DNA of 64,000 bases from an uncultured Bacilli bacterium (GTDB taxonomy: Bacteria; Bacillota_I; Bacilli_A; RFN20; CAG-449), in assembly GCA_947629415.1 (NCBI GenBank), contig CANRDP010000001.1:11290-75289 (forward strand), in the 5' to 3' direction. The translations under genes and the position numbers were made by a program. The notes beneath the pieces were generated by a model that was not told the origin of the DNA, searched no databases, and was given only the letters and a program-made list of their open reading frames with translations. Shown piece after piece: positions 21,626-42,727 of this stretch. Position 1 is the first letter of the stretch. Each line of letters begins with the position of its first letter.

Positions 21626-21646
21626 GTTGAAAGATTGGAGGAAATT

Positions 21647-22516: not shown

Positions 22517-22527
22517 AAAGGAAAACT

Positions 22528-24603: not shown

Positions 24604-24614
24604 AAAAGGATTGT

Positions 24615-24638: not shown

Positions 24639-24666
24639 AATTCCTCATTGATAGTGAGATGATTAT

Positions 24667-25221
24667 ATGAAAAAATTAGTAAAATGTTTCAAATTTCAAA
24701 AAGTGATGTTTGTTGTCCAAATTTTGATGATCGTAATAACTTTTATTTCGGCCTTATCTTTCATGACACAATATGCCAATCTTTTTGGGCTCGAACTTCC
24801 ATTAAATCAAAGTATTATTGACTTTCATAATCATATGCAAAACTTCAATAAAACATGGGTATACCTTTCCATTGTAAGTCTTGTTTCTATTATTGCGATG
24901 TTTTTCTTAGAAACACAAAAAAGAGTTGCTGATCGTTTTGCTTTGATTGTTATGGGTATCTTTATTGCCATTGCTATTGCAACGGCTGTTTATGTTATTG
25001 TCAATACGATGAGTTTATTGCAAGAATATCAACAGGTAGATTTTACTTATATTTATTTGGAAGCTCCGGAATTGGCCGATTATCAATTGCAATTTGAAAC
25101 CTTTTATCTTGTTTTCATCGTTCATATCGTCGCCATTATAACTTTTATAGGATATTTTGTAAGTCTGTTACTTTCTCATATCCTTTATGTAAAAGAGAAA
25201 GGAGAACAAAATGCTCAGTAA
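24667..25221 (+). CDS. Hypothetical polytopic membrane protein
   Basis: 184 aa with 4-5 predicted TM helices and no recognisable motif. Confidence 0.4.
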   Translation: MKKLVKCFKFQKVMFVVQILMIVITFISALSFMTQYANLFGLELPLNQSIIDFHNHMQNFNKTWVYLSIVSLVSIIAMFFLETQKRVADRFALIVMGIFIAIAIATAVYVIVNTMSLLQEYQQVDFTYIYLEAPELADYQLQFETFYLVFIVHIVAIITFIGYFVSLLLSHILYVKEKGEQNAQ

Positions 25222-26008: not shown

Positions 26009-26016
26009 GTAATCAT

Positions 26017-28170: not shown

Positions 28171-30228
28171 ATGGATCAATATATCTTTATTCCATCATTA
28201 ACGAAATTAAAAAAAGAGATTCGTTTAGAAAAAAAAGCACAATATCGCGCTTTGCTTGAAGAAGCAAATCGCTTGTTTTGTTTACCTTTATACGTAGAAC
28301 CTCCTAAAAAGTCAACGACATATATTGCTCAGGCTATGTGTAATTTGACTTTATGCTATCGATTGAGTGAAGATGAAAAATATCTTCAAGAGGCTTTGAG
28401 AATTATTGAAACCGTCCTTTCTTATCCTTACTGGGGAAACGCGCATTTGGTAAATGTTGATTTGAGTGCTTCCTTTCTGCTTTTCGGATTGTCCTTAAGC
28501 TATCATTATATAAAAGAAGATTTATCCGAGAAACAACAGAAAAGAATCGAAGAAAAATTACTTTATCAGGCACAATTGATGTTTGATTACAGCAAGGAAC
28601 ATGAGGATTCCTGGCCTCGTCACTATTTTCAAAATCACAACTGGATTAATTTTACGGGATTAGCTATGGTCGGTTATGTTCTGCAAGAAAAATATCCAAA
28701 AGTAGCCATTTATAAAGAAGCTGCCAAAGAAAATTTTCATAAAGTATTTTCTTATTTACCGGAAGATGGTTCCGATTATGAAGGAGCAACTTATTGGAGA
28801 TATGGTGTATTATGGCTATATATTTATGCTTATCTTTTAAAGGAACAAGAGGGAATTGATTATTTTAAAACATCTGGATTTTTAAAAAATACCTTCGATT
28901 ATCGTTTGTACCAAAGTGCTTCGAATCTTAACAAGCAATTGAATTTTGGCGATTGTCATGATTTATATAGTTCTCATAGTGTTGCGATGTATTATTTGAT
29001 TGCCGGAATATATCATAACGGATACGCACAAAAATTGGGTAATGAAATTTTCACACATTATCTTTATGAAGAACAATATAATAGTAAAATCAAACCGGGT
29101 ATTCTTCCCGAAGCTTATTTGACTTTACTTTGGTATCAACCAAGAATTCAAGAAAAGGATTTGGATGCATTACCAAAAGTGAAATATTTCAAAGATTTAG
29201 GTCTTATTTGTGTTCGGGAAGGATTTAAAAAGCAAGATAAAGTGTTTTCCATTAAATGTTCGTATCCCGGAGGTAAAAAACAATGGTACAAAGGAATAGA
29301 ACATTATCAAAAAACAGGGCAATGGATTCTTTCCTTAGCACATCATCATCCGGATAATTTATCTTATATTTTCACGGGTGGGGACGATTATTACGCTTGT
29401 GATGAAGGTTATAATCGTATGATTGAACCAAGCGATCATAATGTGCTTTTAGTAGATCATCTTTATAGCGATGTCATGCAAACAAATGATGTTTACATGC
29501 GAAGTATTCAAAAGCGCTTAGAAGAAACACCTTTTTATGATGCAAAAAAATATCGTGGAACAATAAGATATTTCTTTATGCACGAAGATATCGTCGCTTT
29601 TCAAATGGAAAATCATGCTATTTATCCGTTATCTTTAAAAATGAAAGAAGTTTCTCGGACGGTTCTTTTAAAAGGACTTCATTGGATTGTAATGATGGAT
29701 ACGTTTGATAGTTTCTGTCCTCATATTTATGAAAGCGTTTTAAATCAATTCCATCCTATGAAAGAAGTAGGGGAAGGATATCAAATTTTCACTTTGGATG
29801 AAGAAATGTATTATTATGTTTTCTCTTCCGATGCATTGGAAATGAATCATACCATTCAAGAAATTAAAAGTATTATGACAACACAAGAACCAGATGTATT
29901 CACAAGAAATATGTTTCATCGATACATCGCTTCTACAAAAGAAAAAAAGAAAAAACATATGAGAATAGAGGTTTTTTCTACCGAAAAACTTCAACCGCGA
30001 TGGCAGAAAAACACCTTCATACTTACGGAAAATGAAAGAATTCTATTTAAGAAGAATTATGACTTCGATTTTGACGGAAAGATGCTATATCTCCGTTATG
30101 AATCAAATTATCTCAAGGAATTGGTTTTACTTGAAGGAACATTTGTTTCATATAAAGGTCAGGAACTGATTCGTCTACCTAAAAAAGGAAGTGCTAAGAA
30201 AGGAGATTTTTATGCAATACTTAAATGA
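28171..30228 (+). CDS. Heparinase II/III-like polysaccharide lyase (PL12/15/17/21 superfamily), cytoplasmic
   Basis: 685 aa with no signal peptide. It has alpha/alpha-toroid N-H and aromatic motifs (QNHNWINF, GATYWRYG) and a C-terminal Hepar_II_III-type H-x-H-x-D motif (LAHHHPDNLSYIF). Confidence 0.5.
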   Translation: MDQYIFIPSLTKLKKEIRLEKKAQYRALLEEANRLFCLPLYVEPPKKSTTYIAQAMCNLTLCYRLSEDEKYLQEALRIIETVLSYPYWGNAHLVNVDLSASFLLFGLSLSYHYIKEDLSEKQQKRIEEKLLYQAQLMFDYSKEHEDSWPRHYFQNHNWINFTGLAMVGYVLQEKYPKVAIYKEAAKENFHKVFSYLPEDGSDYEGATYWRYGVLWLYIYAYLLKEQEGIDYFKTSGFLKNTFDYRLYQSASNLNKQLNFGDCHDLYSSHSVAMYYLIAGIYHNGYAQKLGNEIFTHYLYEEQYNSKIKPGILPEAYLTLLWYQPRIQEKDLDALPKVKYFKDLGLICVREGFKKQDKVFSIKCSYPGGKKQWYKGIEHYQKTGQWILSLAHHHPDNLSYIFTGGDDYYACDEGYNRMIEPSDHNVLLVDHLYSDVMQTNDVYMRSIQKRLEETPFYDAKKYRGTIRYFFMHEDIVAFQMENHAIYPLSLKMKEVSRTVLLKGLHWIVMMDTFDSFCPHIYESVLNQFHPMKEVGEGYQIFTLDEEMYYYVFSSDALEMNHTIQEIKSIMTTQEPDVFTRNMFHRYIASTKEKKKKHMRIEVFSTEKLQPRWQKNTFILTENERILFKKNYDFDFDGKMLYLRYESNYLKELVLLEGTFVSYKGQELIRLPKKGSAKKGDFYAILK

Positions 30229-32113
30229 ACATTATAAGGAAGCTATCTTAAAAAATCCAAAATATCTTCAGGCAATTGAAAAAATGAAAAAGGAAGTTCG
30301 TGAATTTTATGATACATTTTACGATGATCCGAAGGTTATCAGTGTCTGGGGACATAATTATTTTTGTGATTATGATGGGGGACGTTTGATTTTCGATATT
30401 CATAAACCTCATGAACATAAATGTTCTGTCTGTGGAAAAGTTTTTTCTAATGAAATTTATGATGGAGTTTGGGTGTACTTTTATCGTAATCAAGCGATTT
30501 TAAGTGCGTGGAAGGCTGCAGGAATTTATGCTTTTACTCATGAGACACTTTATCTTACGATTGCGAAACATCTTCTTTCTTTCTATGCGGATCATTATAA
30601 AGAATTCGTTTTGCACAACAAAGAAGGAAAAATATATTCTTCTTATGAAGAAATGAAATGGGGATGTGGAAGAATCCTGCCTCAGGGATTAAATGAATCC
30701 ATTATTTGTATTCGCATGATTCAGGCATTGGAAATCATTAAAAATGATGTAAGTCCGGAATTTCTCAATGAATTATATGAAAAAATGTTTTCCGAAATGG
30801 TACTCTTGTTCAAACCTCAGATTGATCAAATTCACAATATCCGATGTTGGAACAACTGTGCTTTAGGCCTTATTGGTTTATTTTTCCATAAAGAAGAGGT
30901 CATCCATTTTGTCTTTCATGGTCCTTACAATATCCGTCGTCAAATAGACGAAGGAGTAACGGAAGATGGTTTCTGGTATGAAGGATCCATTCATTATAAT
31001 TTTTTCACTTTAGAAGGTATTACTCCTCTTTTGCTTTTCAGTGAAATTTATCATTATGATTTTGGTGCAAAGGAAAAAGAAATAGTACATAAAATGTTTA
31101 TCCATGCTTATCATTATGCCTTTGATAATCAGGTTCTTCCCAATCCGAATGACGGGTGGCCAAATATCAATTTAAAGACATATAGTTATATCTATCATAT
31201 GGCAAGTCGTGTTTTCGGAGAATATAGCGATGTGGGAAATCTTTTGAAAAACATTGAAAATCACCCGTTGCCACGAACAACATTACCTCTTTCCAAACCT
31301 TATTATATCGATAATGAAATTGCTTATGAAAGATTACTTTTGAATACAGATTATGATTTTGACGTATATGAAAAAGTCATTCCCGTGGCGAAGAATTTTC
31401 CCAAATCGAATTTTGCTACATTGCGAAACGATAACATCAATGTCTTTGTCAAATACGGACTCAATGGTCCTTCTCATTCACACCCCGATTTGATTAATAT
31501 GGAAATTATGTATAAAAATCGGATGATCAGTCGGGATTTATCCAATTGCGGTTATCGTGCAAAATTATGTGATGAATGGCATCGTACATCTTTAGCTCAC
31601 AATGTTGTCATTCGAAACGGAGAGAATATTCCTTCTGTTTCGCCTGGAAAAACACTTGAATTTCAGCCGACAAAAATATGTGCAAAAGCTGAGAATGTTT
31701 ATCCTCAGGTAGATGCCATCCGTACGATTGAAATTGATTCCTGTCATATCATGGATTGCTATGAAATTCATGCAGCAGAAGAAGCTACATTTGATTATGT
31801 TTTTCATTTGGAAAGTGATTTTGAAATCAGTTCCTTACCTTTGGAAAAAGCAACATTGGGTTATGAAAAGAACGGATATCAACATGTTTTGGAAACTTAT
31901 AGAGTCAAAGATTGTCCTTCCAAACTCACTTTTTTTGCCCGAGCAAAAGATCTCGTATTGACTTTGGAATTTGAAACTCAAAATAAAGAGGTCTTTATAT
32001 TGAAAACTATGGATAATCCCGTCAATAAGACGAGAACAACTATTTTATTAAGAGAAAAAGGAACAACCATTCTATATCAAATGAAATTAACTATAAAGGA
32101 GGAAAAAGAATGA
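30212..32113 (+). CDS. Heparinase II/III-like polysaccharide lyase, second cytoplasmic paralog
   Basis: 633 aa with ..NIRCWNNCALGL.., ..GFWYEGSIHYNFF.. and ..GPSHSHPDLINMEI... The N-terminus has a Cys/His cluster (CDYDGG...HKPHEHKCSVCGK). ATG 30212 has the RBS AAAGGAG. Confidence 0.5.
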   Translation: MQYLNEHYKEAILKNPKYLQAIEKMKKEVREFYDTFYDDPKVISVWGHNYFCDYDGGRLIFDIHKPHEHKCSVCGKVFSNEIYDGVWVYFYRNQAILSAWKAAGIYAFTHETLYLTIAKHLLSFYADHYKEFVLHNKEGKIYSSYEEMKWGCGRILPQGLNESIICIRMIQALEIIKNDVSPEFLNELYEKMFSEMVLLFKPQIDQIHNIRCWNNCALGLIGLFFHKEEVIHFVFHGPYNIRRQIDEGVTEDGFWYEGSIHYNFFTLEGITPLLLFSEIYHYDFGAKEKEIVHKMFIHAYHYAFDNQVLPNPNDGWPNINLKTYSYIYHMASRVFGEYSDVGNLLKNIENHPLPRTTLPLSKPYYIDNEIAYERLLLNTDYDFDVYEKVIPVAKNFPKSNFATLRNDNINVFVKYGLNGPSHSHPDLINMEIMYKNRMISRDLSNCGYRAKLCDEWHRTSLAHNVVIRNGENIPSVSPGKTLEFQPTKICAKAENVYPQVDAIRTIEIDSCHIMDCYEIHAAEEATFDYVFHLESDFEISSLPLEKATLGYEKNGYQHVLETYRVKDCPSKLTFFARAKDLVLTLEFETQNKEVFILKTMDNPVNKTRTTILLREKGTTILYQMKLTIKEEKE

Positions 32114-32448
32114 AAGAAATTCAAAATTACTTTTTAGACAAAGATATTGTCTTTAAAGATGCTGATCCGGGTGTGCAAAGAAAAATCTTGGCACATAACG
32201 AATCTTTAATGGTTTGCCGTTTGCATTTTGAAAAGGGAGCTGTCGGTGCTTTGCATCAGCATCCTCATACACAATGCACCTATATTATTTCGGGGAAATT
32301 CGAATTCAATATTGGAGGCAAAAAAATGATTTTGGGGCCTGGCGATTCTACTTATAAAGAACCCGACGTGATTCACGGCGCCGTTTGTCTTGAAGAGGGA
32401 GAATTGTTAGATATATTTACACCAGAAAGAAAAGACTTTTTGAAATAG
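32110..32448 (+). CDS. Cupin-2 protein, KdgF-like unsaturated-uronate linearising enzyme
   Basis: 112 aa with the cupin metal motifs HQHPHTQ and PDVIHGAV. Its size and its context among lyases and an SDR match KdgF. Confidence 0.5.
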   Translation: MKEIQNYFLDKDIVFKDADPGVQRKILAHNESLMVCRLHFEKGAVGALHQHPHTQCTYIISGKFEFNIGGKKMILGPGDSTYKEPDVIHGAVCLEEGELLDIFTPERKDFLK

Positions 32449-32459
32449 GAGGAGATGAA

Positions 32460-33209
32460 ATGAAAAAAGTTGTAATTATTACCGGTGGGACCGGCGGCAT
32501 CGGTTCGGCGACTGCTTTGGAATTGGCAAAACAGGGATATTCCATTGCATTAAACGGAATCGATGATGAAGCAGCAGTTCAAGTGATGAATGACTTGAAA
32601 AACATGGGTGCGGATGCCAAGTATTATCATTTTGATGTCACGGATGAAGCAGCTGTGAATGAAAATGTTAATCAAATTGCAAAAGATTTTGGCCAGATCG
32701 ATGCATTGATTAATTGTGCAGGTGGATTAGGAGGAAGATCGCGTTTTGAAGTGATGACGACAGAATTCTATCGTAAAGTGATGGCTTTGAACTTAGATAG
32801 TGCTTTCTTTATGTCACGTGCTTGTATTCCGTATCTGAAAAAAAGCGAGAATCCTTCCATTATCAATTTTTCATCGAATGCCGGATGGAATGCTGGTGGT
32901 CCGGGAGCGGGAATGTACGGAACAAGTAAAGGTGCAATTATCACTTTCACAAGAGCGTTAGCGAAAGATTTAGCGGAATATCACATCCGTTGCAATGCGG
33001 TCGCTCCGGGAACGATTGATACACCTTTTCATGATGCCACGAAGAAAAATAATCCTGCATTATTTGAATCTTGGAAAAACAACATCTTACTAAAGCGCTT
33101 TGGAAAACCTTCGGAAGTGGCTACGGTTATTGCCTTCTTATTAAGTGAAAACGCATCTTTCATTACCGGAGAGATTGTGCAAATTAATGGAGGACAGGAT
33201 TTACTCTAA
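32460..33209 (+). CDS. SDR-family oxidoreductase (KduD/DehR-like 2-keto-3-deoxy sugar acid reductase)
   Basis: NAD(P)-binding motif TGGTGGIGSA, catalytic YGTSK (YxxxK) and NCAGG. Confidence 0.6.
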   Translation: MKKVVIITGGTGGIGSATALELAKQGYSIALNGIDDEAAVQVMNDLKNMGADAKYYHFDVTDEAAVNENVNQIAKDFGQIDALINCAGGLGGRSRFEVMTTEFYRKVMALNLDSAFFMSRACIPYLKKSENPSIINFSSNAGWNAGGPGAGMYGTSKGAIITFTRALAKDLAEYHIRCNAVAPGTIDTPFHDATKKNNPALFESWKNNILLKRFGKPSEVATVIAFLLSENASFITGEIVQINGGQDLL

Positions 33210-33210
33210 A

Positions 33211-34377
33211 ATGGATGTCTTTGATATCGTAAAATTGGATCCGGTGAACTATTACATTCTTTATTCCTTAAAAGAATTAAAAGCGATAAAGGCAAAGATT
33301 TCTTCTAAAGAATTAAAAGAATTTCAAGATATTTTTCAACCTTATGAAGTTCTTTATGAAAAGGAAAAAAGAAGTGTGGTGGAAAAAAAGATTTTCTTAA
33401 AAGGTATCGATAAAAAAGATTATGTTTCTTTAGCAACATATTTTTGGCCAAATAAAGAAACAGTGGATGGATTGCCTTATGTGTCCTATGATGGTAAGGC
33501 AAATCCTGAAGGCGATCTCTATGACAAACAGAATTTAAGACGATTGGCATTTATTACTTATTATCAGGCAATTTTATATTTTCTCAGCGAAGACGAAAAA
33601 TATCTTCGGATGATTGAAAAGAATTGGACATACTACTTCTTCGATGATATTACGGGAATGAATCCGAATATGGATCATGCACAACTGATTCGGGGAGTAA
33701 ACCTGGGACGAGGCATAGGAATGATTGATTTTACAGCGAATGTTTCATATGCCTTATATATGCTGAATCTCTTAAAGAAAGAAAAGAAATTATCGGAGAG
33801 TTTTCTTACAAAACTCACCGCCTGGTTAGAAAAATTCTATCACTGGTATCAATATTCACGAATTGCTCTGGAAGAAAAATATGCGGAAAATAATCATGGT
33901 ATCTTTTATGATTTCGGGTTATGTGTACTGATTGATTTTCTGGAGAAAAAAGACGAAATGTATCCATTAGTTATCCAGATGATTGAACTGAGGATGAAAC
34001 ATCAGATAAAAAAAGATCGGATGCCTTTGGAACTTCAAAGAACAAAAGCAAAAAGTTACGCTTTGATGGGAATTAAAGGTATCTATGATTTCTCTTTCAT
34101 CAGTTCATCGTATGGGTATAATCTTTATACCTTAAATGAATGGTATGATAAAAAAGCGGATATTGACATTCGCTTAGTAGAAGATTTGCTTTATCGACAG
34201 TTGGTGTCACAAGAAGTAACTTTTCCATATGAACAGATAACACCATTTGATGTTGCGACCCTATTACCATTGCTCTATGAAAAGAATAAATGGGATGTAA
34301 ATTCATTGAAAAACATGATAAAATTAAAATGTTTAATGAAAATGGATTGGCAATATCGCTTGCTGAAACATTTGTAG
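33211..34377 (+). CDS. Alginate-lyase-family (AlgL/PL5- or PL17 N-domain-like) alpha/alpha-toroid protein, cytoplasmic
   Basis: 389 aa. AENNHGIFY resembles the PL5 NNHSYW motif and the protein is aromatic-rich. ATG 33211 has the RBS GGAGGA, so the track start at 33145 was rejected. Confidence 0.35.
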   Translation: MDVFDIVKLDPVNYYILYSLKELKAIKAKISSKELKEFQDIFQPYEVLYEKEKRSVVEKKIFLKGIDKKDYVSLATYFWPNKETVDGLPYVSYDGKANPEGDLYDKQNLRRLAFITYYQAILYFLSEDEKYLRMIEKNWTYYFFDDITGMNPNMDHAQLIRGVNLGRGIGMIDFTANVSYALYMLNLLKKEKKLSESFLTKLTAWLEKFYHWYQYSRIALEEKYAENNHGIFYDFGLCVLIDFLEKKDEMYPLVIQMIELRMKHQIKKDRMPLELQRTKAKSYALMGIKGIYDFSFISSSYGYNLYTLNEWYDKKADIDIRLVEDLLYRQLVSQEVTFPYEQITPFDVATLLPLLYEKNKWDVNSLKNMIKLKCLMKMDWQYRLLKHL

Positions 34378-34385
34378 GAGGAGTT

Positions 34386-35171
34386 ATGAATAATACCATA
34401 CGAAAAACATATGAAATTTTAGGATTAATCGGTGAGTCGAAAGAAAGAGGATTATCTTTATCAGAAATTGTCTTGCAGACAGGACTTCCTAAAAGCAGTG
34501 TTTTCGATATCGTAAAGTCACTTTATGAATTGAATTTGTTATCTGTAAATCAATATAACGATAAGAAATACGTTTTGGGCATTGCCACCTTTGAACTGGG
34601 TTCCAAATTTACACAGGACAAAACTTTAGTGGCTACTTGTCAACAATATCTTCTACCCATTGCGGATCGTTTAGGCCAAACGGCATTTATTGCTATGCTC
34701 AACGGAGGAAATATCATCTACATTTATAAGTATCAAGCGGAAAATGCAACACTTGCCTCTTGTAAAGTAGGTAGCTCTCATTTGGCCTATACTACTGCCT
34801 TAGGAAAAAGTTTATTATCCTACATTGATGAAGAAAGCTTGAATGCTATTATTCAACAGTACACTTTTGATTTTTCCGGAGGAAATACCATTCATTCCAA
34901 AGAAGAACTATTGGCACAAATTGCTGATTGTCGTAAAAATGGATACGCAATTGACTTACAAGAAAACGAGATTACTCGTGTGTGCTATGGAGCACCTATT
35001 TTCAATGCCCAGGGAAAACCGATTGCAGCGATATCGATTTCCGATTTGAAACGCAAGGATGTGGATCATAATAGTTATGGTGAAATCATCCGAGATTGTG
35101 CTATTAAAATATCGCATGAATTAGGCTATCCTGAGAAACAATATTGGGCAAAACAAAACATATTGATTTGA
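34386..35171 (+). CDS. IclR-family transcriptional regulator (KdgR-like)
   Basis: N-terminal winged-HTH (GLSLSEIVLQTGLPKSSVFDIVKSL) plus a C-terminal IclR effector domain. RBS GGAGGAG. Confidence 0.7.
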   Translation: MNNTIRKTYEILGLIGESKERGLSLSEIVLQTGLPKSSVFDIVKSLYELNLLSVNQYNDKKYVLGIATFELGSKFTQDKTLVATCQQYLLPIADRLGQTAFIAMLNGGNIIYIYKYQAENATLASCKVGSSHLAYTTALGKSLLSYIDEESLNAIIQQYTFDFSGGNTIHSKEELLAQIADCRKNGYAIDLQENEITRVCYGAPIFNAQGKPIAAISISDLKRKDVDHNSYGEIIRDCAIKISHELGYPEKQYWAKQNILI

Positions 35172-35245: not shown

Positions 35246-37018
35246 ATGTCAAAAAAGAAAAATATACTGATGGGCATTCTTGCATTATCTGCAGCAATGC
35301 TTCTTGGTGCATGTACAAATAATAATGAAAATACTACTTCTTCGGTAGGAACAAGTAAGGATACTACTTCTTTAAATAGTCAGGTAAATGACATTACGTT
35401 AAAGAGTGCAACCTTATCCAGTGATTCAAGTACACCGGGTAAATTAATTGTTAAAGCAAGCAAAAAAGAGGGAGAAACAGGCACAATTTATTATGCCATT
35501 ACAAAATTAGAAAATAAAGAATGCACAAATGCCGAGATCATGAATCCAGATAGCACTGTTTTTGTAAAAAGTGGTCATTCGGATGAAGATGTGGATACAT
35601 CATTTGATTTAGAGGCAGGTGTGACATATTATGGTTATTTCCTTTTGAAAAGAGGAGATAATTACAGTAATATCGTGAAAAGAAACGCTACAACATATAT
35701 TAATTCATCCGATATGGGTGATGGTAGCGAAGAGACACCATTTAAGATTTCCACTTTAGAAGATTTAGAAGCAATAGGCGGAACTTATGCAAAATATGAT
35801 TTGGAGTTCAAGACAACGTCTCATTATATTTTAATGGATGATATTGATTTATCTTCCAAATATAATGCAACAAGTCAAACGAGTTGGACACCTATCGAAT
35901 CATTTGATGGTGTTTTTGACGGAAATGGTCATAAGATTTCTAACCTTTACATCAATAGTCCCGAAACTACAGGTAGATTAGGGTTATTTTCACAAGTAAA
36001 TACCAAAGGTATCGTAAAAAATCTGACAATTGAAGACGTTACCATCACGGCCAAAGGTGCTTCGGAAAACGCAAGAGGTGTTGATAGTAATGGCAACCCA
36101 ACCACCTCGGATGTGAAAAATTTAGCTTACTATACTCCGAATACCGATATTTCTATTGGTGTGCTTACGGGTGATGTCAAAGGACAAGTAGATAATGTTC
36201 ACATTAAAAAGGCCAATATAACAGTTGATGGAAGTCGTGTGGGTGGTTTGACCGGGAGATTTTATTCCGATGAAGGAACAAGTGCCAAAATTTCCAATAG
36301 TTCCGTGGAAGAAACAACGATTCAAGCAACTAATCGTGTTGGAGGAATCGCAGGACTTGTTGATTCAAAGTCTAAAGTAACGCATACCCAGGCTTTGATT
36401 GAAAATTGCACATTTCAAGGAACAATTCAAAGTGCGAATAAAGAATTGAAAGATCCGGATACAAGCAAAAATCCGAATCAAAGTGTTACGGCAATTGTTG
36501 CTGCCGAATACATTGGAGGAATTGCGGGATATTATCGTGGCTGTGATATGAAAAATGTTGTATCTGAAGCTAATATCACAGGATATCGCCATATCGGAGG
36601 AGTCATTGGTTTCCAACAATTCAATGGTAAAACCAATGTTGGAGAACATTATTCTACTTTGGATGGTGCTATGGCTAATGTTGAATTGCATGTAGGTGAA
36701 AATATAAAGAATATGGGTCCCATCGTTGGTAATAAATCAACGAGTTATACAAGCTCTGGATCTGGAGATAAACTAGATGCAAGTGTGACAATGGATACGG
36801 CTGTTTCAACAAATAATGCATATTTTGTCAGTACTTCAAAATTCTATTCGGGTACAGGGGAAATAGGATTTGATGCTTTACCTTCCAGTGCAAAATACGG
36901 GACTTCAGTTGAGGCAAGTGCTTTAACAAGTGAATGGTATAACACCTATTTGGTGAGTTTTGATTTTGATAAAGTATTTCAACTCGATGACACAACAAAA
37001 TTGCCGGTTTTAAAATAA
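35246..37018 (+). CDS. GLUG-motif right-handed beta-helix lipoprotein, paralog of the 16370 gene
   Basis: Lipobox LLGAC. The same module is present: GDGSEETPFKISTLEDLEAIGG...FDGVFDGNGHKISNLYINS, then VGGLTGRF, VGGIAGLV, IGGIAGYY and IGGVIGFQ. Confidence 0.5.
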   Translation: MSKKKNILMGILALSAAMLLGACTNNNENTTSSVGTSKDTTSLNSQVNDITLKSATLSSDSSTPGKLIVKASKKEGETGTIYYAITKLENKECTNAEIMNPDSTVFVKSGHSDEDVDTSFDLEAGVTYYGYFLLKRGDNYSNIVKRNATTYINSSDMGDGSEETPFKISTLEDLEAIGGTYAKYDLEFKTTSHYILMDDIDLSSKYNATSQTSWTPIESFDGVFDGNGHKISNLYINSPETTGRLGLFSQVNTKGIVKNLTIEDVTITAKGASENARGVDSNGNPTTSDVKNLAYYTPNTDISIGVLTGDVKGQVDNVHIKKANITVDGSRVGGLTGRFYSDEGTSAKISNSSVEETTIQATNRVGGIAGLVDSKSKVTHTQALIENCTFQGTIQSANKELKDPDTSKNPNQSVTAIVAAEYIGGIAGYYRGCDMKNVVSEANITGYRHIGGVIGFQQFNGKTNVGEHYSTLDGAMANVELHVGENIKNMGPIVGNKSTSYTSSGSGDKLDASVTMDTAVSTNNAYFVSTSKFYSGTGEIGFDALPSSAKYGTSVEASALTSEWYNTYLVSFDFDKVFQLDDTTKLPVLK

Positions 37019-37029: not shown

Positions 37030-39135
37030 ATGAAAAAGAGATATTTATTTTTGATTTCATTTCTTTTTCTGGGCCTAGTTTCGTGTAATACGACTGGTAA
37101 CACCGATAATACATCAGGAAATTCGGGACAATCATCCATTGATTTAGGGGATATTGGCAATTTGCCATTTTCCTCTAAATTTATCGGAGATTGGAATCGA
37201 CCGGGTTTATATGAGAAGGATGGTTCAGAGCATACCATGCCTGAAACACAAAAAGAAACGGGTATGGAAATCAGTGTCGCGGATTATGGTGCAAAAGCAA
37301 ATAACCCGGCGGCGGATAATTACAGTGCTTTTAAAAATGCCATTTCCAATGCGAATTCTGGAGATACGATATTTGTCCCCAATGGAACATATTATTTTTC
37401 TAGTGGAGGTAACATTGTAGGTGGAGCATATAAAGCCAACATAATCATAAATAAGGATAATATTACCTTTAAAGGAGAATCCAAAGAGGGAGTTATTCTC
37501 GTTTCCAATTTCAATGAAGCTGCCAATCGTGATGATTCAACGACTGTCATCGGTGCAGTTAATGTGAAAAATGTAACGATTAAAAATCTGACAGTAACAT
37601 CCAATACTTCGGATGATGTCTTGCCGGATCCGGATAATTCGAACTTGCAAACGACAACATATACTGCACCAAAGTATGGTATTACTGCCGCGAGTGCGGG
37701 AACGATTTCAAGTGCAGAAAAACAAGCAAGAAACATTCTTATTGAAAACTGTATGGTAGAAAAGTTCCAAAGAATGGGCGTCCGTGTCGCACAGGCACAG
37801 GAAGTCGTCGTTCGATCTTGTTCTTTCCAAAAAGCCACATGTCTTGGAGGAGGCGGCATGGGATATGGTGTCAATATTCAAGGATTCGGTCATGATTTCG
37901 ATAGTACGGATACCTTCGTAGATACTCGATTCAATGCCGTAGAAAACTGCAAATTTATTGGTCCTTATCTCCGTCATGGTGCTTTAATTCAATATTATGC
38001 ACACAATAATGTCATTCGGAATAACCAATTTGATGATTTGTTATTAGATTCTATTGATATGCATGGGGAAGATGAATATTCCAATGAAATTTATGAAAAT
38101 AAAGTAAATAATTCACGACGTGGTGCAGGAATCGGTTTGGGAAATACAGGAGCAACTCATGATGCTTCTGGAAGAAATAATTATATTCATGATAATATCA
38201 TTACGGGTGGACAAAGAGGTATTGATGTTCTTCTCGGTACACCGGATACGATTATTTATAATAATGAAATTAAAAACGTTTCTTCTACGGGAATCAAATG
38301 TACGAATGCCAATGGAACGAATATTATCAAAAATAAATTGTCCAATGTTGCAAGCGATGCTGTTACAGTAATGTATTCCTTTGTTTTCTCTGATCCAGCT
38401 TTGGGAATTCCCAATCATTATCGTATTTCTGACAATACTTTTACTTCGTGTAATCGTGGTATTTATTTTGATTCCAAAGAATCGGATTTTGTTGTTGAAA
38501 ATAACGAATTCAATGATATTGATGAAAATCTGAAAATTGTGGATGAATCCGCTGATTTTGTTTTACCACCAAAATCTACTTTAATGGATCCTGTTGAAGG
38601 AATAGATGTTTATCCGCAAGAAAATATGTTCATCACTATGGAAAGCCAAGATCAACCCGCGGTATATCAGAAAAATCTGAAATTGAAGACGAGTAATTTA
38701 GAACCCTTATTTAATCGTATTATTTATGCCTTATGGGATAAATCTACGATGCCGGCAAGTTATGAACATGTATATCTTTGTATGACGGCAAAAGCACAAG
38801 ATGGTGCTCCAACCATCAATATCTTTACGAATACAACGTATACCGATTGGAAAACGGAGACGATTTATTGGAATAATTCCAAATTGCATCATGAGACTTT
38901 AGCGCTCATTAAGAATACAACAGAGGATCCTGTCACTTCATTCGCGGATTTTACTTTCCCGATTGTTGAATACGAATTCCATACTTATTATCTAGATGTT
39001 ACCGAGGCATTTAAGACATTGCCTAATGGATTATTCACTATGGTATTTACCAATGAATCCATTGATGAATCTTATATGGAAATCTATTCAAATCAACAGG
39101 CCAATAATCAAGGTTTACGATTTATTTTTAGTTAA
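37030..39135 (+). CDS. Lipoprotein with a Pectate_lyase_3-type beta-helix CAZyme domain plus a conserved C-terminal domain of unknown function
   Basis: Lipobox LGLVSCN. The N-terminus DYGAKANNPAADNYSAFKNAISNANSGDTIFVPNGTYYF is the Pectate_lyase_3 signature. The helix carries GGGGMGYG and DSIDMHGEDEYSNEI. The C-terminal 150 aa are conserved with the next gene. Confidence 0.5.
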   Translation: MKKRYLFLISFLFLGLVSCNTTGNTDNTSGNSGQSSIDLGDIGNLPFSSKFIGDWNRPGLYEKDGSEHTMPETQKETGMEISVADYGAKANNPAADNYSAFKNAISNANSGDTIFVPNGTYYFSSGGNIVGGAYKANIIINKDNITFKGESKEGVILVSNFNEAANRDDSTTVIGAVNVKNVTIKNLTVTSNTSDDVLPDPDNSNLQTTTYTAPKYGITAASAGTISSAEKQARNILIENCMVEKFQRMGVRVAQAQEVVVRSCSFQKATCLGGGGMGYGVNIQGFGHDFDSTDTFVDTRFNAVENCKFIGPYLRHGALIQYYAHNNVIRNNQFDDLLLDSIDMHGEDEYSNEIYENKVNNSRRGAGIGLGNTGATHDASGRNNYIHDNIITGGQRGIDVLLGTPDTIIYNNEIKNVSSTGIKCTNANGTNIIKNKLSNVASDAVTVMYSFVFSDPALGIPNHYRISDNTFTSCNRGIYFDSKESDFVVENNEFNDIDENLKIVDESADFVLPPKSTLMDPVEGIDVYPQENMFITMESQDQPAVYQKNLKLKTSNLEPLFNRIIYALWDKSTMPASYEHVYLCMTAKAQDGAPTINIFTNTTYTDWKTETIYWNNSKLHHETLALIKNTTEDPVTSFADFTFPIVEYEFHTYYLDVTEAFKTLPNGLFTMVFTNESIDESYMEIYSNQQANNQGLRFIFS

Positions 39136-39147
39136 ATTAGAAAGTCA

Positions 39148-39178
39148 TATCCGGATGGATATTTTGTTCATCCGGATA
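39148..39178 (+). terminator. Hairpin after the 37030 gene
   Basis: TATCCGGATG-gatattttgtt-CATCCGGATA with a weak U-tract. Confidence 0.35.
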
Positions 39179-39259
39179 GACTTTTCCATATGGAATATCT
39201 TTCTATGTTACTAAACATTTGCTTGACATAGAAAGATATGTACAGGAAAGGAAAATTGC

Positions 39260-41719
39260 ATGAAAAAGAAAAAATATATATTACATATGTTCTTGACTCT
39301 CGGCTTATTTTCTTGTGCTTCTATGAATTTATCTGGAAATTCTACATCACAATATCAAGATTCGATAGTCTCAACAGGAGAAACAAGTATGGAAAATAGC
39401 AAGGATAGTTTAGATTCTTCCTCGATGTCTTCAACTTCTATGGTTACAGATGAATTCTCAAGTAGCAAGAGTTCTTCTAGTGAAATATCATCTTCTACTA
39501 AATCTTCCGATGGATCAAAAGTTTCTTCAAAGGATTCCACTTCCTCTTCCCGTAATACTTCCGATACCAGTGGATTAAGTTCGTCGCACAATTCTTCGAC
39601 TTCTCATAATTCAAGTGATAGTTCCATGAATTCAACAGAAAGTCTTACACCTCCGGCAGAAGATGAAACGGATTTATATCACCAAAAAAAAGATTATAGC
39701 AATTTATCTTTTGCCAATATGTTTCAGGGAAAATGGAATCGTCCGGGCCTTTATAATGAAGATGGAAGTATTCATAATATGCCTATCCCCGTAAAACAAA
39801 CGGGGAAAAAAATCGATGTAACTTCTTCCTCTTATGGAGCTATAGCAAATAATCCGGATAAAGATAATTACGAAGCTTTTAAAAAAGCTATTGAGGCCGC
39901 AAAAAGTGGAGATACTATCTATATTCCCAAAGGAAAATATTATTTTAAAAATTCTTTGAACAAATATGGATTTTATTCACAAATTTCTATTTTGAAAGAT
40001 AATATTACACTTCAAGGAGAATCGAAAGAAGAGACGATACTTATTTCTAATTTTGAAGAAAATTATAATCAATCAAAGAACACTACACTTATAGGAATTT
40101 TAAATGCTCATCAAGTAGCGATAAAAGATGTAACGATATCTTCTGTAGTAACCGATGATTTGTTACCGGATATCGATGATAGTAAAGCCAATCCAAAAAC
40201 ATATTTAGCTCCAAGATATGGTATTGTGGTTTCCACAAATAAAGAGGCTACAAAGGCCAGTGAACAGACAAAAAATGTTTTAATTGAAAATTGCATTATT
40301 GAAAAATTTCTCAGATCCGGAGTTCGTATTGATTGTGCTCAGGAAACTATTGTTTCATCTTGTACTGTTCAAAAAGCCACCGGTCTTGGCGGTGGAGGTG
40401 CCGGATATGGTATAGATATTCAGGGATATAAAAATAATTATAATGATTTAGTTGATGGAAAAGGTTATCTGGATACGTGCTTTAATGTTGTCACAGAGTG
40501 TCAATTTGTCGGCCCTTATATTCGGCATGGTGCATTGATTCAATATCATGCCCATAATAATCTCATACATAAAAATACATTCAAGGGAACGTTACTGGAT
40601 TCTATTGATATGCATGGGGAAGATGAATATTCCAATGAAATCTGCCATAATGATATTGACAATTCTCGGAATGGTGCCTGCATCGGTTTGGGAAATACCG
40701 GTGGTGGAGACGAAGGTGCTGCTATCGGAGGGAATCGTCATGACGCTTCGGGAAGAAATCATTTTATTCACGATAATGTTTTAAAAAATTCGAAACGGGC
40801 TATTGACATTATGCTGGATACTCCGAATACATTTATTTACAATAACATCATCGATAACATACAAACGACAGGAATTAAAATCACGAGTTCGCAAGGGGTA
40901 TATATTTTGCAAAATCAAATATCAAATATCATGAAGAATGAAACCATTTTAATTGATTATGATGAAATTAAATCCTATACATTAAAGAATTATGATATTT
41001 CCGAAAATACATTCACCAATTGTAAAACGGGAATTTATTCGCAGCAAAATATTACGGATATTACCGTAAAGAATAATAAATTCACGAATGTAACGACACC
41101 TGTCGGGGGAACGATTCCTCAAAATCAGATAGGGGAGACTACTCTTCCCGAAAGTGATGATTTTTTAAATCCTGTCTTTGGAAAAGAAGTATTACCTATC
41201 GATAATTCTTATATTGAATATAAATCTTTAGACACTGTTGTCACTTTAAATAGTACTTTAAAATTAAGATCGGGAAATGCCAGAAGTGATGCCAATCGAA
41301 TTCCATATCTTTTATGGAATAAATCAAATATGCCATCAAATTATCAAAAAGTTTATTTAAGTTTCACTATAAAAGTACAAAATGCAACGCCGACGATAAA
41401 TATTTTTACAAATACAACCTACACCAGTTGGTCCGGTTCGACGTTAACTTGGAATAATTCTAAATTACACCAGAGTGAATTTGCCACTATAAAAAACACG
41501 AGTGATGATCCGATAAATTCTTTGATTGATTTTACAATTCCCGAAGGATATGGTGATTATTCATTTCATACCTTCTATATAAATGTGACTGAAGCATTTC
41601 AAAAGATACCGAATAGTTTATTTACCATGATTATAACGAATGAGGCAAAAGAAAATGTTTATATGGAAATCCAAAATCTTAAATCCGAGAATTCCATGAA
41701 ATTTATCTTTGTAAATTAA
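39260..41719 (+). CDS. Paralogous Pectate_lyase_3-type beta-helix lipoprotein with a Ser-rich linker of about 110 aa
   Basis: Lipobox LGLFSCAS. Motifs SYGAIANNPDKDNYEAFKKAIEAAKSGDTIYIPKGKYYF, GGGGAGYG and DSIDMHGEDEYSNEI are shared with the upstream gene, as is the C-terminal domain. Confidence 0.5.
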   Translation: MKKKKYILHMFLTLGLFSCASMNLSGNSTSQYQDSIVSTGETSMENSKDSLDSSSMSSTSMVTDEFSSSKSSSSEISSSTKSSDGSKVSSKDSTSSSRNTSDTSGLSSSHNSSTSHNSSDSSMNSTESLTPPAEDETDLYHQKKDYSNLSFANMFQGKWNRPGLYNEDGSIHNMPIPVKQTGKKIDVTSSSYGAIANNPDKDNYEAFKKAIEAAKSGDTIYIPKGKYYFKNSLNKYGFYSQISILKDNITLQGESKEETILISNFEENYNQSKNTTLIGILNAHQVAIKDVTISSVVTDDLLPDIDDSKANPKTYLAPRYGIVVSTNKEATKASEQTKNVLIENCIIEKFLRSGVRIDCAQETIVSSCTVQKATGLGGGGAGYGIDIQGYKNNYNDLVDGKGYLDTCFNVVTECQFVGPYIRHGALIQYHAHNNLIHKNTFKGTLLDSIDMHGEDEYSNEICHNDIDNSRNGACIGLGNTGGGDEGAAIGGNRHDASGRNHFIHDNVLKNSKRAIDIMLDTPNTFIYNNIIDNIQTTGIKITSSQGVYILQNQISNIMKNETILIDYDEIKSYTLKNYDISENTFTNCKTGIYSQQNITDITVKNNKFTNVTTPVGGTIPQNQIGETTLPESDDFLNPVFGKEVLPIDNSYIEYKSLDTVVTLNSTLKLRSGNARSDANRIPYLLWNKSNMPSNYQKVYLSFTIKVQNATPTINIFTNTTYTSWSGSTLTWNNSKLHQSEFATIKNTSDDPINSLIDFTIPEGYGDYSFHTFYINVTEAFQKIPNSLFTMIITNEAKENVYMEIQNLKSENSMKFIFVN

Positions 41720-41728: not shown

Positions 41729-42727
41729 ATGAAAAAAATTGCATTTTTCAATGTTGCCGAATTAAAAAAATATCAAGATGGATATATATTATATCGCTAT
41801 CCGTCGGATGTAATCCGTACGCTGGGATATCACGAAAATGTCAAAGGAAGAGTAAAGGCCAAACTTCCTACAATGTGTGAGATGCGTTTTCATACGGAAG
41901 AAACATCTTTTCAAATGACTTTCAAAGCTTTGGATGCGGATAGTCATATACATCTTTATGTCGAAGGATTTCAATCAAGTTCAATACCTTTGAAAAAAGG
42001 AAAAAAAGAGAAAATTACTTTTACTCTTCACCCACGATTTGTAGAACATCATAAAGATGTCTCTGATCAAGATGGATATGATATTCGATTCATCTTTGAT
42101 AATTCTTCTCGGATTGTTTGTTATGATGTAGATCAAGAGGATATTGTAGAGGAAAAAAACCTACCTTATGTTCTTTACGGAAGTTCAATTTCTCAAGGTA
42201 TAGGAGCTCATGACATATTTCATTCTTATGCTTTCCAATTACAACAGAGACTGAATGTAGATATTTTAAATAAAGGATTATCGGGATCGTGTCTTTTGGA
42301 AAGAAAAGCAATCCGATATCTTTCATCGCTTCCTTGTAAAGGATATATTTTGGAAATTGGATGCAATGTTCGGGGAGTTATGGAAACGGAAGAATTTGAA
42401 AAGCGTTTCTCTTATCTTATAAATACTTTAGTAAAAGCACATCCAAAGGAACCAATCTTTGTCATTAATATATTGGATATGTTTGAAAACTTATATAAAG
42501 ATTTTAAAGATATTCCTTATCATCAAAAAAATTTGGAAATTATTCGGATAATTCAAGAAAAGATACATAAAAAAAGAAAAAAGAATTTGTATTTGATTTC
42601 AGGAAAAAATTTAATAGAAAATATTTATGGAATCAGTGGAGATTTATTGCACCCATCGGATATCGGACATGAAGAAATGAGTATAAAACTTGCTAAAATA
42701 ATTAAAGAAATATTAAAGGAGGATTAG
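41729..42727 (+). CDS. Cytoplasmic SGNH-hydrolase-type esterase with an N-terminal beta-sandwich
   Basis: GSSISQG (block I, Ser nucleophile) and DLLHPSDIGH (block V DxxH). There is no signal peptide. Confidence 0.45.
   Translation: MKKIAFFNVAELKKYQDGYILYRYPSDVIRTLGYHENVKGRVKAKLPTMCEMRFHTEETSFQMTFKALDADSHIHLYVEGFQSSSIPLKKGKKEKITFTLHPRFVEHHKDVSDQDGYDIRFIFDNSSRIVCYDVDQEDIVEEKNLPYVLYGSSISQGIGAHDIFHSYAFQLQQRLNVDILNKGLSGSCLLERKAIRYLSSLPCKGYILEIGCNVRGVMETEEFEKRFSYLINTLVKAHPKEPIFVINILDMFENLYKDFKDIPYHQKNLEIIRIIQEKIHKKRKKNLYLISGKNLIENIYGISGDLLHPSDIGHEEMSIKLAKIIKEILKED

What the first reader, a model, noticed from the sequence alone, without database searches (positions are those of the whole stretch)
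37030..41719. Paralogous Pectate_lyase_3-type beta-helix lipoproteins sharing an uncharacterised C-terminal domain
Both start with the DYGA..NNP..DNY.AF..AI..A.SGDTI.IP.G.YYF signature and share GGGG(M/A)GYG and DSIDMHGEDEYSNEI helix turns. They lack the GH28 catalytic NTDG/G(D/H)G/RIK motifs, so the activity (lyase or hydrolase) and the CAZy family are unclear. Both end with a conserved, Trp/Asn-rich domain of about 150 aa (..PTINIFTNTTYT.W...T..WNNSKLH.. ..FTM..TNE...YMEI) that I cannot assign. It could be a new CBM-like module. The second copy inserts a linker of about 110 aa made almost only of Ser/Thr/Asp (a glycosylation-type spacer).
Basis: seen in the sequence. Interest (0 to 1): 0.5.

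Follow-up and report, generated by a model that had tools for sequence, protein, structure and literature searches.

The report
Two surface-anchored PL44–CBM96 alginate-lyase paralogues
The two neighbouring genes encode membrane-anchored enzymes of a recently named alginate-cutting family (PL44), each with a recently named alginate-binding module (CBM96), inside a gut bacterium's gene cluster for eating acidic polysaccharides; both "unassignable" parts already have a family name, so the finding is real but fairly ordinary.

Summary
Genes 37030-39135 (701 aa, A) and 39260-41719 (819 aa, B) are tandem paralogues, 49% identical. Each has a lipoprotein signal, a right-handed beta-helix and a shared C-terminal beta-sandwich. 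B also has a Ser/Thr-rich stretch of about 120-140 aa.

The interpretation that the parts are unassignable or new does not hold.
- **C-terminal domain: CBM96.** The family profile matches the founding structure 7VBO (E 2.7e-21) and the model matches it by fold (TM 0.79). The key alginate-binding residues Arg36, Lys25, Lys27 and Tyr159 are kept.
- **Beta-helix: PL44.** It is homologous to Aly44A (WP_213137828), the characterised founder of CAZy family PL44, an endo-acting, polyM-preferring alginate lyase. A shares 31% identity over 686 aa (E 1e-60); B shares 35% over 453 aa (E 8e-52). Every invariant polar residue of the family is shared with Aly44A.

The genes lie in a conserved polyuronate-utilisation locus (PL6, PL17-like, PL35-like, a homologue of alginate-lyase-family protein 8BDQ, GH88, KdgF, SDR, IclR, ABC importer, GDSL esterases). 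The same locus occurs in gut Acholeplasmatales-type MAGs.

Most likely function: cell-surface endo-lyases that bind and cut alginate-like polyuronate for import. They are new members of known families. Activity and exact substrate are untested.

The parts
37030..39135 (+). Gene A: 701-aa lipoprotein, [lipobox - short tether - PL44-type beta-helix - CBM96]
   Evidence: ORF. 31% identity over 686 aa to Aly44A (P0160 = WP_213137828.1), E 1e-60. AF2 model has mean pLDDT 92.3.
37030..37086 (+). A: lipoprotein signal peptide, lipobox L-V-S-C with Cys19
   Evidence: Sequence MKKRYLFLISFLFLGLVSC. Cys19 is invariant in the 58-sequence family alignment.
37162..38559 (+). A: catalytic module (aa ~45-510): conserved N-terminal extension (WNRPGLY...), N-cap DYGA... 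and a right-handed parallel beta-helix. Invariant residues: Y279, D298, R315, H316, H325, D343, H345, E349, N352, N372, H377
38602..39132 (+). A: CBM96 beta-sandwich (aa ~525-701) with basic groove K548/K551/K553/R563, Y682, W607 and W614
   Evidence: Pfam PF24517 at 18.1 bits, sub-threshold. Family profile vs 7VBO E 2.7e-21. Foldseek to 7vbo TM 0.79. Ligand residues mapped from PMC9971899.
39260..41719 (+). Gene B: 819-aa lipoprotein paralogue, [lipobox - long Ser/Thr tether - PL44-type beta-helix - CBM96]
   Evidence: ORF. 49% identical to A. 35% identity over 453 aa to Aly44A, E 8e-52.
39260..39316 (+). B: lipoprotein signal peptide, lipobox L-F-S-C with Cys19
   Evidence: Sequence MKKKKYILHMFLTLGLFSC.
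39317..39694 (+). B: low-complexity Ser/Thr/Asp-rich tether (aa 20 to ~145) between the lipid anchor and the enzyme
   Evidence: Residues 20-140 are 40% Ser and 11% Thr; S+T+D+N+E make up 70%. The tether is 139 aa, against 21-68 aa in the 30 of 56 other family members the script could measure.
39695..41170 (+). B: PL44-type catalytic beta-helix module (aa ~146-637)
   Evidence: BLASTP to A and to Aly44A. The same invariant residues are present. Pfam Beta_helix at 23.5 bits.
41171..41716 (+). B: CBM96 (aa ~638-819)
   Evidence: Pfam PF24517 at 20.9 bits, E 3.3e-4. Aligned with A's CBM96. K25, K27 (as Arg), K31 (as Arg), R36 and Y159 equivalents are present.
39148..39239 (+). Two strong hairpins in the A-B spacer: 39148-39178 directly after A's stop, and 39195-39239 just upstream of B's ribosome-binding site. 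They suggest partial termination or separate control of B.
   Evidence: Perfect inverted repeats of 10 and 14 nt. RNA fold -46.5 kcal/mol, z = -8.05. Function not shown.
35246..37018 (+). Context: 590-aa GLUG-motif lipoprotein, always directly upstream of the PL44 gene in syntenic loci
   Evidence: Pfam Glug. Synteny in L001 and L004-L007. Lipobox LGAC.
41729..42727 (+). Context: cytoplasmic GDSL_3 esterase, always directly downstream
   Evidence: Pfam PF14606, E 1.7e-25. Synteny.
28171..35171 (+). Context: cytoplasmic uronate-processing block. It holds a PL35/DSE-like protein (28171), a PL17-like protein (30191), a KdgF-like cupin (32110-32448), an SDR (32460), a homologue of the alginate-lyase-family protein 8BDQ (33145) and an IclR regulator (34290).
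   Evidence: Pfam. PDB sequence matches 9o3q PL35, 7bm6 PL17 and 8bdq/3nfv. Cupin ORF. No signal peptides.
12007..27111 (+). Context: upstream half of the locus. It holds two GDSL esterase lipoproteins, GH88, a 506-aa lipoprotein, a PL6 lipoprotein (17892-19904), ABC permeases, a 691-aa lipoprotein (putative solute-binding protein) and a MalK-type ATPase.
   Evidence: Pfam. Lipoboxes.

Best explanation
A and B are cell-surface lipoproteins of a wall-less, Acholeplasmatales-type gut bacterium. Each consists of a PL44-family polysaccharide-lyase beta-helix followed by a CBM96 carbohydrate-binding module.

Proposed mechanism:
1. After signal peptidase II processing, Cys19 is lipid-modified and holds the protein on the outer face of the membrane (inferred from the lipobox).
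2. The CBM96 basic groove (K551, K553, R563, Y682) binds an internal stretch of an anionic polyuronate chain, most likely alginate or polymannuronate (inferred from conservation of residues shown by mutagenesis in the CBM96 founder).
3. The beta-helix groove, lined by the invariant Y279, R315, H316, H325, D343, H345, E349, N352 and H377, cleaves the chain endolytically by beta-elimination, as shown biochemically for the PL44 founder Aly44A (inferred by homology; which residues act as base and acid is not known to me).
4. The unsaturated oligosaccharides are taken up by the locus-encoded ABC importer. In the cytoplasm they are degraded by the PL17-like, PL35-like and 8BDQ-like lyases and GH88. 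KdgF and the SDR convert the unsaturated monomer to KDG, under IclR control (inferred from gene content).

The two paralogues probably divide the labour. A sits close to the membrane on a 35-aa tether, and B is held out on a 139-aa Ser/Thr-rich stalk. They may also differ in block specificity.
For: - Paralogy and architecture.
- PL44: P0160 carries accession WP_213137828.1. PMC11890756 names that accession as Aly44A, the founder of PL44. PMC12193947 describes Aly44A as a polyM-preferring, random endo-acting alginate lyase.
- BLASTP of A against Aly44A gives E 1e-60, 31% identity over 686 aa, spanning helix and CBM. B gives E 8e-52, 35% over 453 aa.
- All 20 or so invariant or near-invariant polar residues of the helix are identical in Aly44A, and they stay invariant across 66 homologues down to about 28% identity.
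- CBM96: family profile vs 7VBO E 2.7e-21, Foldseek TM 0.79, Pfam PF24517 just below threshold while close homologues pass. R36 is kept in 58/58 sequences, K27 in 57/58, Y159 in 57/58 and K25 in 52/58.
- Distant homologues fuse the same helix to PL7 alginate lyase domains and to CBM32.
- The locus content is typical of alginate or uronate catabolism, and it is syntenic in many gut MAGs.
- The lipobox is present in 57 of the 58 aligned members (Cys19 is an invariant alignment column), and other locus proteins split into exported and cytoplasmic sets.
Against: - No biochemical data exist for these proteins or for any member of the Mollicute clade.
- Identity to the one characterised PL44 enzyme is only 31-35%, so substrate specificity may differ.
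- I could not run the dbCAN/CAZy PL44 model or read the founding paper, so the published catalytic residues of PL44 are unknown to me.
- Two of the seven alginate-binding residues of the CBM96 founder (K10, K31) are Glu in most members of this clade, including A. CBM96/DNRLRE domains also occur on hyaluronate and pectate lyases, so the module does not prove alginate specificity.
- Relatives are abundant in murine and rabbit gut MAGs, where dietary alginate is not an obvious substrate. The locus also has GH88 and several esterases, which fit other acidic or acetylated glycans.
- The window CBM96 domains alone fall below Pfam's gathering score.
Confidence: 0.7

Rival explanations
1. Same families (PL44-like helix plus CBM96-like module), but the true substrate is a different anionic glycan, not algal alginate. 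Candidates are O-acetylated bacterial alginate or exopolysaccharide, beta-1,4-glucuronan, or a host glycosaminoglycan. The enzymes would still be surface endo-lyases feeding the same importer.
For: - The locus contains GH88, a PL35/DSE-like protein, a PL6/chondroitinase-B-type protein and four GDSL esterases.
- Relatives are abundant in murine-gut Acholeplasmatales MAGs.
- CBM96/DNRLRE modules also occur on hyaluronate and pectate lyases.
- K10 and K31 of the CBM96 founder are replaced by Glu.
- Identity to Aly44A is only 31-35%.
Against: - The only characterised PL44 enzyme and the only characterised CBM96 are both alginate-specific.
- Homologues are fused to PL7 alginate lyase domains.
- The closest solved folds act on mannuronan.
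- By my recollection, the PL6 + PL17 + PL38 combination is the known gut Bacteroides alginate set; only paper titles and abstracts were seen.
Confidence: 0.2
2. The helix is a mannuronan C5-epimerase (AlgE/AlgG-like), not a lyase. It would remodel M/G content at the cell surface.
Against: - The defining YG(F/I)DPH(D/E) motif and the AlgG DPHD motif are absent. In the profile alignment the motif falls on QRMGVRVA.
- The characterised homologue Aly44A is a lyase.
- The gene context is catabolic (KdgF, SDR, exo-lyase-like proteins), not biosynthetic.
Confidence: 0.05
3. The helix is a glycoside hydrolase (GH28/GH87/GH110-like) or a non-catalytic surface adhesin that only binds glycans.
Against: - GH28 motifs are absent.
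- Similarity to the characterised lyase Aly44A is full-length and far stronger, E 1e-60.
- A strictly invariant His/Tyr/Arg/Asp constellation across 66 homologues argues for catalysis.
- E347 and D348 are Gln and Gly in the active enzyme Aly44A.
Confidence: 0.05

Closest known systems
Aly44A (WP_213137828) from Bacillus sp. FJAT-50079, founding member of CAZy family PL44 (Zhou et al. 2024, Carbohydr. Polym. 343:122474, as cited in PMC11890756 and PMC12193947)
   Same: Homologous over the whole catalytic beta-helix, including the N-terminal extension and N-cap, and followed by a CBM96 in the same order. All invariant polar residues are shared: Y279, R315, H316, H325, D343, H345, E349, N352, N372, H377.
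   Different: - Only 31-35% identical.
- Aly44A has an N-terminal CBM32 (F5/8 type C) domain, whereas the window proteins have a lipoprotein anchor plus tether.
- E347, D348 and D378 are Gln, Gly and Ser in Aly44A.
- In the CBM96 part, Y682 is Asn in Aly44A, the K553 column is a gap and K548 is Phe.
- The host is a gut Mollicute-type bacterium, not a Bacillus.
CBM96 founder TM6-N4 of the PL39 alginate lyase Dp0100, Defluviitalea phaphyphila (PDB 7VBO; PMC9971899)
   Same: Beta-sandwich of about 180 aa with full-length profile and fold matches. The W..TWNN core, the essential Arg36, and Lys25, Lys27 and Tyr159 are conserved.
   Different: About 20% identity. K10 and K31 are Glu in protein A and in most members of this clade; in B, K31 is Arg, and its K10 position was not mapped with confidence. 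The Ca2+ ligand Asp82 is Ser in B. The module is attached to a PL44 helix rather than a PL39 toroid. The window domains score below Pfam's gathering cut-off.
AlgE4/AlgE6 A-modules and the bifunctional epimerase/lyase 8JA4 (Azotobacter-type mannuronan C5-epimerases; PDB 2PYG, 5LW3, 8JA4)
   Different: The catalytic YGFDPHE motif and D178 are not conserved. The invariant constellation lies 1-3 rungs further towards the C-terminus. There are no Ca-binding R-modules. The context is catabolic rather than biosynthetic.
Other beta-helix alginate lyase families: PL6 (e.g. 6QPS, 7O79, 7DMK) and PL31 (PsAly, 6KFN)
   Same: Right-handed parallel beta-helix lyases acting on alginate. A separate PL6 gene lies in the same locus.

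Membership tests
CAZy PL44 (alginate lyase, beta-helix) | Significant sequence similarity of the catalytic module to the biochemically characterised founder Aly44A (WP_213137828) | tested here: met
   P0160 = WP_213137828.1. A: E 1e-60, 31% identity over 686 aa. B: E 8e-52, 35% identity over 453 aa.
CAZy PL44 (alginate lyase, beta-helix) | Conservation of the family's invariant groove residues (candidate catalytic residues) | tested here: met
   Y279, D298, R315, H316, H325, D340, D343, H345, E349, N352, N372 and H377 are identical in A, B, Aly44A and three further Bacillales members. They are invariant across 66 homologues. Which of them PL44's authors identified as catalytic is not known to me, because the paper is not held.
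CAZy PL44 (alginate lyase, beta-helix) | Hit to the curated dbCAN/CAZy PL44 HMM above threshold | not testable with these tools
   No dbCAN library is available. Pfam and NCBIfam have no PL44-specific model.
CAZy PL44 (alginate lyase, beta-helix) | Beta-eliminative cleavage of alginate (polyM-preferring, endo) | not testable with these tools
   Needs an enzyme assay. Only context and homology support it.
CBM96 (Pfam PF24517; DNRLRE-type beta-sandwich) | Sequence match to the family model or founder | tested here: met
   Single-sequence Pfam scores are 18.1 and 20.9 bits against a gathering score of 26, so sub-threshold (E 2.5e-3 and 3.3e-4). The homologue P0016 (61% identical to A) scores 26.3. 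The 58-sequence family profile matches 7VBO at E 2.7e-21 over residues 13-195 of 203, and the DNRLRE protein 8WAB at E 6.6e-8.
CBM96 (Pfam PF24517; DNRLRE-type beta-sandwich) | Beta-sandwich fold superposable on 7VBO | tested here: met
   Foldseek of the AF2 model vs 7vbo: E 5.7e-9, TM (target) 0.79, rmsd 2.8 A over 188 columns.
CBM96 (Pfam PF24517; DNRLRE-type beta-sandwich) | Alginate-binding groove residues of TM6-N4 (K10, K22, K25, K27, K31, R36, Y159) | tested here: inconclusive
   R36, K27, K25 and Y159 are conserved in 52-58 of 58 sequences, and K22 in 39 of 58. K10 and K31 are mostly Glu. The essential Arg is kept, but the groove is not identical.
CBM96 (Pfam PF24517; DNRLRE-type beta-sandwich) | Binding to internal alginate chains | not testable with these tools
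   Needs affinity electrophoresis or ITC.
AlgE/AlgG mannuronan C5-epimerases | YG(F/I)DPH(D/E) catalytic motif (Y149, D152, H154) plus D178 (PMC8824271) | tested here: not met
   The motif is absent from A and B. hhalign places it on QRMGVRVA (M249, R252, A254), with low column confidence.
AlgE/AlgG mannuronan C5-epimerases | A-module beta-helix fold | tested here: met
   [not shown]
Pfam Pectate_lyase_3 / Pect-lyase_RHGA_epim (PF12708) | Pfam model hit above gathering score | tested here: not met
   No PF12708 hit at E <= 0.1 for A or B. The model does hit distant homologues such as P0064 (54.4 bits), and it is recorded for Aly44A. Only the N-cap signature is shared.
GH28 polygalacturonases | NTD / G(D/Q)D / G(H/D)G / RIK catalytic motifs | tested here: not met
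   None of the four motifs is present. Only the N-cap aligns to GH28 structures.
Bacterial lipoproteins (SPase II substrates) | N-terminal basic/hydrophobic signal followed by a lipobox [LVI][ASTVI][GAS]C | tested here: met
   LVSC and LFSC with Cys19. The Cys is invariant in the family alignment. Lipidation itself is not testable here.

The most novel reading that the evidence does not exclude
The gut-Mollicute clade of PL44-like lipoproteins may not be an algal-alginate lyase at all. It could be a functionally shifted subfamily acting on an O-acetylated bacterial or host-derived polyuronate in the mammalian gut. On this reading, PL44 as a whole is an evolutionary offshoot of AlgE-type C5-epimerases in which the catalytic centre has moved 1-3 rungs along the helix. 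Paralogue B's 139-aa Ser/Thr stalk would then be an adaptation of wall-less bacteria for reaching polymer away from the membrane.
Probability: 0.15. Interest if true: 0.55.

Novelty: new member of a known kind. Interest (0 to 1): 0.3.

Why it matters
Both modules that could not be assigned belong to recently founded CAZy families, PL44 and CBM96.

Its modest value is threefold:
- It extends PL44, currently known from one characterised Bacillus enzyme, to a well-populated clade of lipoproteins in gut Acholeplasmatales-type bacteria, embedded in a conserved multi-lyase utilisation locus.
- It shows that PL44's nearest structural relatives are the AlgE mannuronan epimerases, not PL6 or PL31, while the epimerase motif is missing. 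This gives a defined set of invariant residues to test for the PL44 mechanism.
- It suggests that wall-less gut bacteria forage alginate-like polyuronates with surface-tethered enzymes.

None of this would greatly surprise a CAZyme specialist.

Tried and rejected
- **Direct PDB sequence search with protein A.** It found only a marginal N-cap match to iota-carrageenase GH82 (E 0.007), which is uninformative.
- **RbmB VPS lyase (9OZD).** It was the second-best profile hit, but almost only through the N-cap. Its catalytic Lys227 has no invariant counterpart that I could identify in the family alignments, though no residue-level alignment to RbmB was made. Rejected as the family.
- **Mapping the AlgE catalytic tetrad onto the family.** I tried hhalign and manual rung-register analysis. 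The YGFDPHE motif is not conserved, and only the RHG rung aligns. A residue-level structural superposition could not be made, because the fold tools return no alignments or coordinates.
- **GH28 or Pectate_lyase_3 as the family.** Rejected.
- **The founding PL44 paper.** It is not held, and no supplements are held for PMC11890756. PL44's published catalytic residues therefore remain unknown to me.
- **The ruminant alginate-foraging paper (PMC13377030).** It does not mention this protein type.
- **The 14-nt palindrome upstream of B as an operator.** It does not recur in the window beyond chance.
- **Promoter and terminator consensus scans.** They gave no enrichment over shuffles.

Full report
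**1. Observation**

The window contains two adjacent + strand ORFs exactly at the reported coordinates: A (37030-39135, 701 aa) and B (39260-41719, 819 aa). They are 49% identical over 681 aligned columns.

Both proteins begin with a lipoprotein signal, LVSC and LFSC, with Cys19. That Cys is an invariant column in a 58-sequence family alignment.

The Ser/Thr/Asp-rich segment of B is real: 40% Ser and 11% Thr, with S+T+D+N+E making up 70% of it. It lies directly after the lipobox Cys, so it is a 139-aa tether between the lipid anchor and the enzyme. The tether is 35 aa in A and 21-68 aa in the 30 other family members the script could measure.

**2. The C-terminal domain is CBM96**

- Scanned alone, the two C-terminal pieces hit Pfam PF24517 (CBM96) at 18.1 and 20.9 bits, just under the 26-bit gathering score. 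Close homologues pass it: P0016, 61% identical to A, scores 26.3, and P0065 scores 61.7. Many homologues are named 'CBM96 family' or 'DNRLRE domain-containing' by NCBI.
- A profile of the 58-member family matches PDB 7VBO at E 2.7e-21 over essentially its whole length. It also matches a DNRLRE-domain structure, 8WAB, at E 6.6e-8. 7VBO is the TM6-N4 module of the alginate lyase Dp0100, which founded CBM96 (PMC9971899).
- The AlphaFold2 model of A (mean pLDDT 92.3) matches 7VBO with TM 0.79 and rmsd 2.8 A.
- I mapped the mutagenesis-defined alginate-binding residues of TM6-N4 through the profile alignment. Arg36, the essential residue, corresponds to R563 and is kept in 58/58 sequences. Lys27 corresponds to K553 (57/58), Tyr159 to Y682 (57/58), Lys25 to K551 (52/58) and Lys22 to K548 (39/58). 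Lys10 and Lys31 are mostly Glu.

The domain is therefore a somewhat divergent CBM96, not a new module.

**3. The beta-helix belongs to PL44**

Pfam sees only generic Beta_helix and NosD repeats.

The defining AlgE motif YG(F/I)DPH(D/E) (PMC8824271) is absent, however. It is aligned, with low column confidence, to QRMGVRVA. Only AlgE's R195-H196-G197 rung matches, falling on the invariant R315-H316-G317.

The literature then gave the decisive lead. PMC11890756 lists PL44 as a new beta-helix alginate lyase family founded on Aly44A of Bacillus sp. FJAT-50079, accession WP_213137828. PMC12193947 describes Aly44A as a polyM-preferring, random endo-acting lyase.

A database search seeded with the Bacillus homologue P0065 returned P0160 from Bacillus sp. 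FJAT-50079. Its accession is WP_213137828.1, so it is Aly44A itself. A aligns to it at 31% identity over 686 aa (E 1e-60), through both the helix and the CBM96. B aligns at 35% over 453 aa (E 8e-52).

The residues that are invariant over 66 homologues down to about 28% identity are Y279, R315, H316, D343, H345, G346, E349, N352, N372 and H377, with D298 and H325 nearly invariant. All are identical in Aly44A.

The helix therefore maps to an existing PL family. Aly44A's architecture is CBM32-PL44-CBM96. The window proteins replace the CBM32 with a lipid anchor and tether.

**4. Context**

The genes sit in a long co-directional locus.

- Exported lipoproteins: two GDSL esterases, a 506-aa unknown, a PL6 (Chondroitinase_B) protein, a 691-aa putative solute-binding protein, a GLUG-motif protein, and A and B.
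- ABC importer components: two permeases and two MalK-type ATPases.
- Cytoplasmic proteins without signal peptides: GH88, a PL35/DSE-like protein, a PL17-like protein, a KdgF-type cupin, an SDR, a homologue of the alginate-lyase-family protein 8BDQ (E 3e-43), an IclR regulator and a GDSL_3 esterase.

This rests.

The same gene order occurs with a single PL44 gene in a rabbit-gut 'Bacilli' MAG (L001). It also occurs in widespread contigs carrying P0009 (327 collection blocks). Named cluster members of P0009 and P0014 come from Acholeplasmatales and Anaeroplasmataceae MAGs.

B is a long-branch paralogue. It is at most 50% identical to any family member, whereas A is 64-70% identical to the same proteins.

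The 124-bp A-B spacer folds into two strong hairpins (z = -8.05), so B may be partly uncoupled from A transcriptionally. This was not shown.

**5. Mechanism**

What is shown: the architecture, the homology to a characterised endo-alginate lyase and to a characterised alginate-binding module, the conservation of the groove residues, and the split of the locus into exported and cytoplasmic proteins.

What is inferred:
- The proteins are lipid-anchored on the surface of a wall-less cell.
- The CBM96 captures an internal segment of the polyuronate.
- The PL44 groove cleaves it by beta-elimination.
- The oligosaccharides are imported by the ABC system and degraded in the cytoplasm to the unsaturated monomer. 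KdgF and the SDR then convert it to KDG under IclR control.
- The short tether of A and the long stalk of B suggest complementary reach, specificity or both.

**6. Rivals**

- A different polyuronate substrate is the serious alternative (about 0.2). GH88, the esterases, the PL35-like protein and the murine or rabbit gut habitat all fit it. Identity to Aly44A is only 31-35%, and the CBM groove is altered.
- An epimerase function (about 0.05) is suggested only by fold similarity. The missing motif, the lyase founder and the catabolic context all argue against it.
- A hydrolase or adhesin function (about 0.05) has little support.

**7. Verdict**

These are new members of known families (PL44 and CBM96) in a new host group, with a lipoprotein architecture. 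Interest is modest, because neither the activity nor the substrate has been tested.

The one mildly surprising point is structural. PL44 is closest to the AlgE epimerases while lacking their catalytic motif. I could not check whether the founding paper already reports this.

Noticed in passing
window 39136-39259: The 124-bp spacer between genes A and B folds into two very stable hairpins (RNA MFE -46.5 kcal/mol, z = -8.05). One has 10-nt perfect arms (39148-39157 / 39169-39178) right after A's stop. The other has 14-nt perfect arms (39195-39208 / 39226-39239), overlaps a TTGACA and lies just upstream of B's RBS. They may act as an attenuator, a terminator or a regulatory site. The arm sequence does not recur elsewhere in the window beyond chance.
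   Followed up: partly
window 35246-37018: A 590-aa lipoprotein whose only Pfam hit above threshold is GLUG motifs lies immediately upstream of the PL44 gene (11-bp gap). It is conserved in that position in all syntenic loci (L001, L004-L007). Its function is unknown; it may be an accessory surface glycan-binding or glycan-processing partner.
   Followed up: partly
window 16370-17890; 22528-24603; 20103-20657; 24667-26008; 27114-28169: Several locus ORFs have no Pfam match. They are a 506-aa lipoprotein between GH88 and PL6, a 691-aa lipoprotein next to the ABC permeases (probably the solute-binding protein), and five small ORFs of 173-265 aa, several with hydrophobic, membrane-like N-termini, interleaved with the transporter genes. 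Two of the small ORFs are conserved in syntenic loci (175 and 191 aa in L004).
   Followed up: no
window 12007-14910 and 41729-42727: Three GDSL-type esterases, two of them exported lipoproteins and one cytoplasmic, lie in a lyase-rich locus. Relatives carry yet another (Flg_new+GDSL, L004 13336-15153). This hints that the target polyuronate is O-acetylated, as in bacterial alginate or glucuronan, rather than plain algal alginate.
   Followed up: no
L004-L007, 15174-20738: In the murine-gut Acholeplasmatales relatives, an 1854-aa NosD/beta-helix protein lies between the esterase and the PL6 gene. No counterpart was seen at the corresponding position in the window (downstream of B).
   Followed up: no
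window 28171-30228: A 685-aa cytoplasmic protein has no Pfam hit in my scan. By sequence it matches a PL35 chondroitinase (9O3Q, E 1.6e-12), DUF4962 proteins and dermatan-sulfate epimerase. The precomputed annotation of its orthologue is DSE-like_N. It may be a broad-spectrum GAG/alginate lyase.
   Followed up: partly
[not shown]
   Followed up: partly
window 3257-10760: Two very long ORFs (1192 and 1302 aa) upstream of the locus have the sizes expected of rpoB and rpoC. They were not analysed, but could be used to place the organism taxonomically.
   Followed up: no
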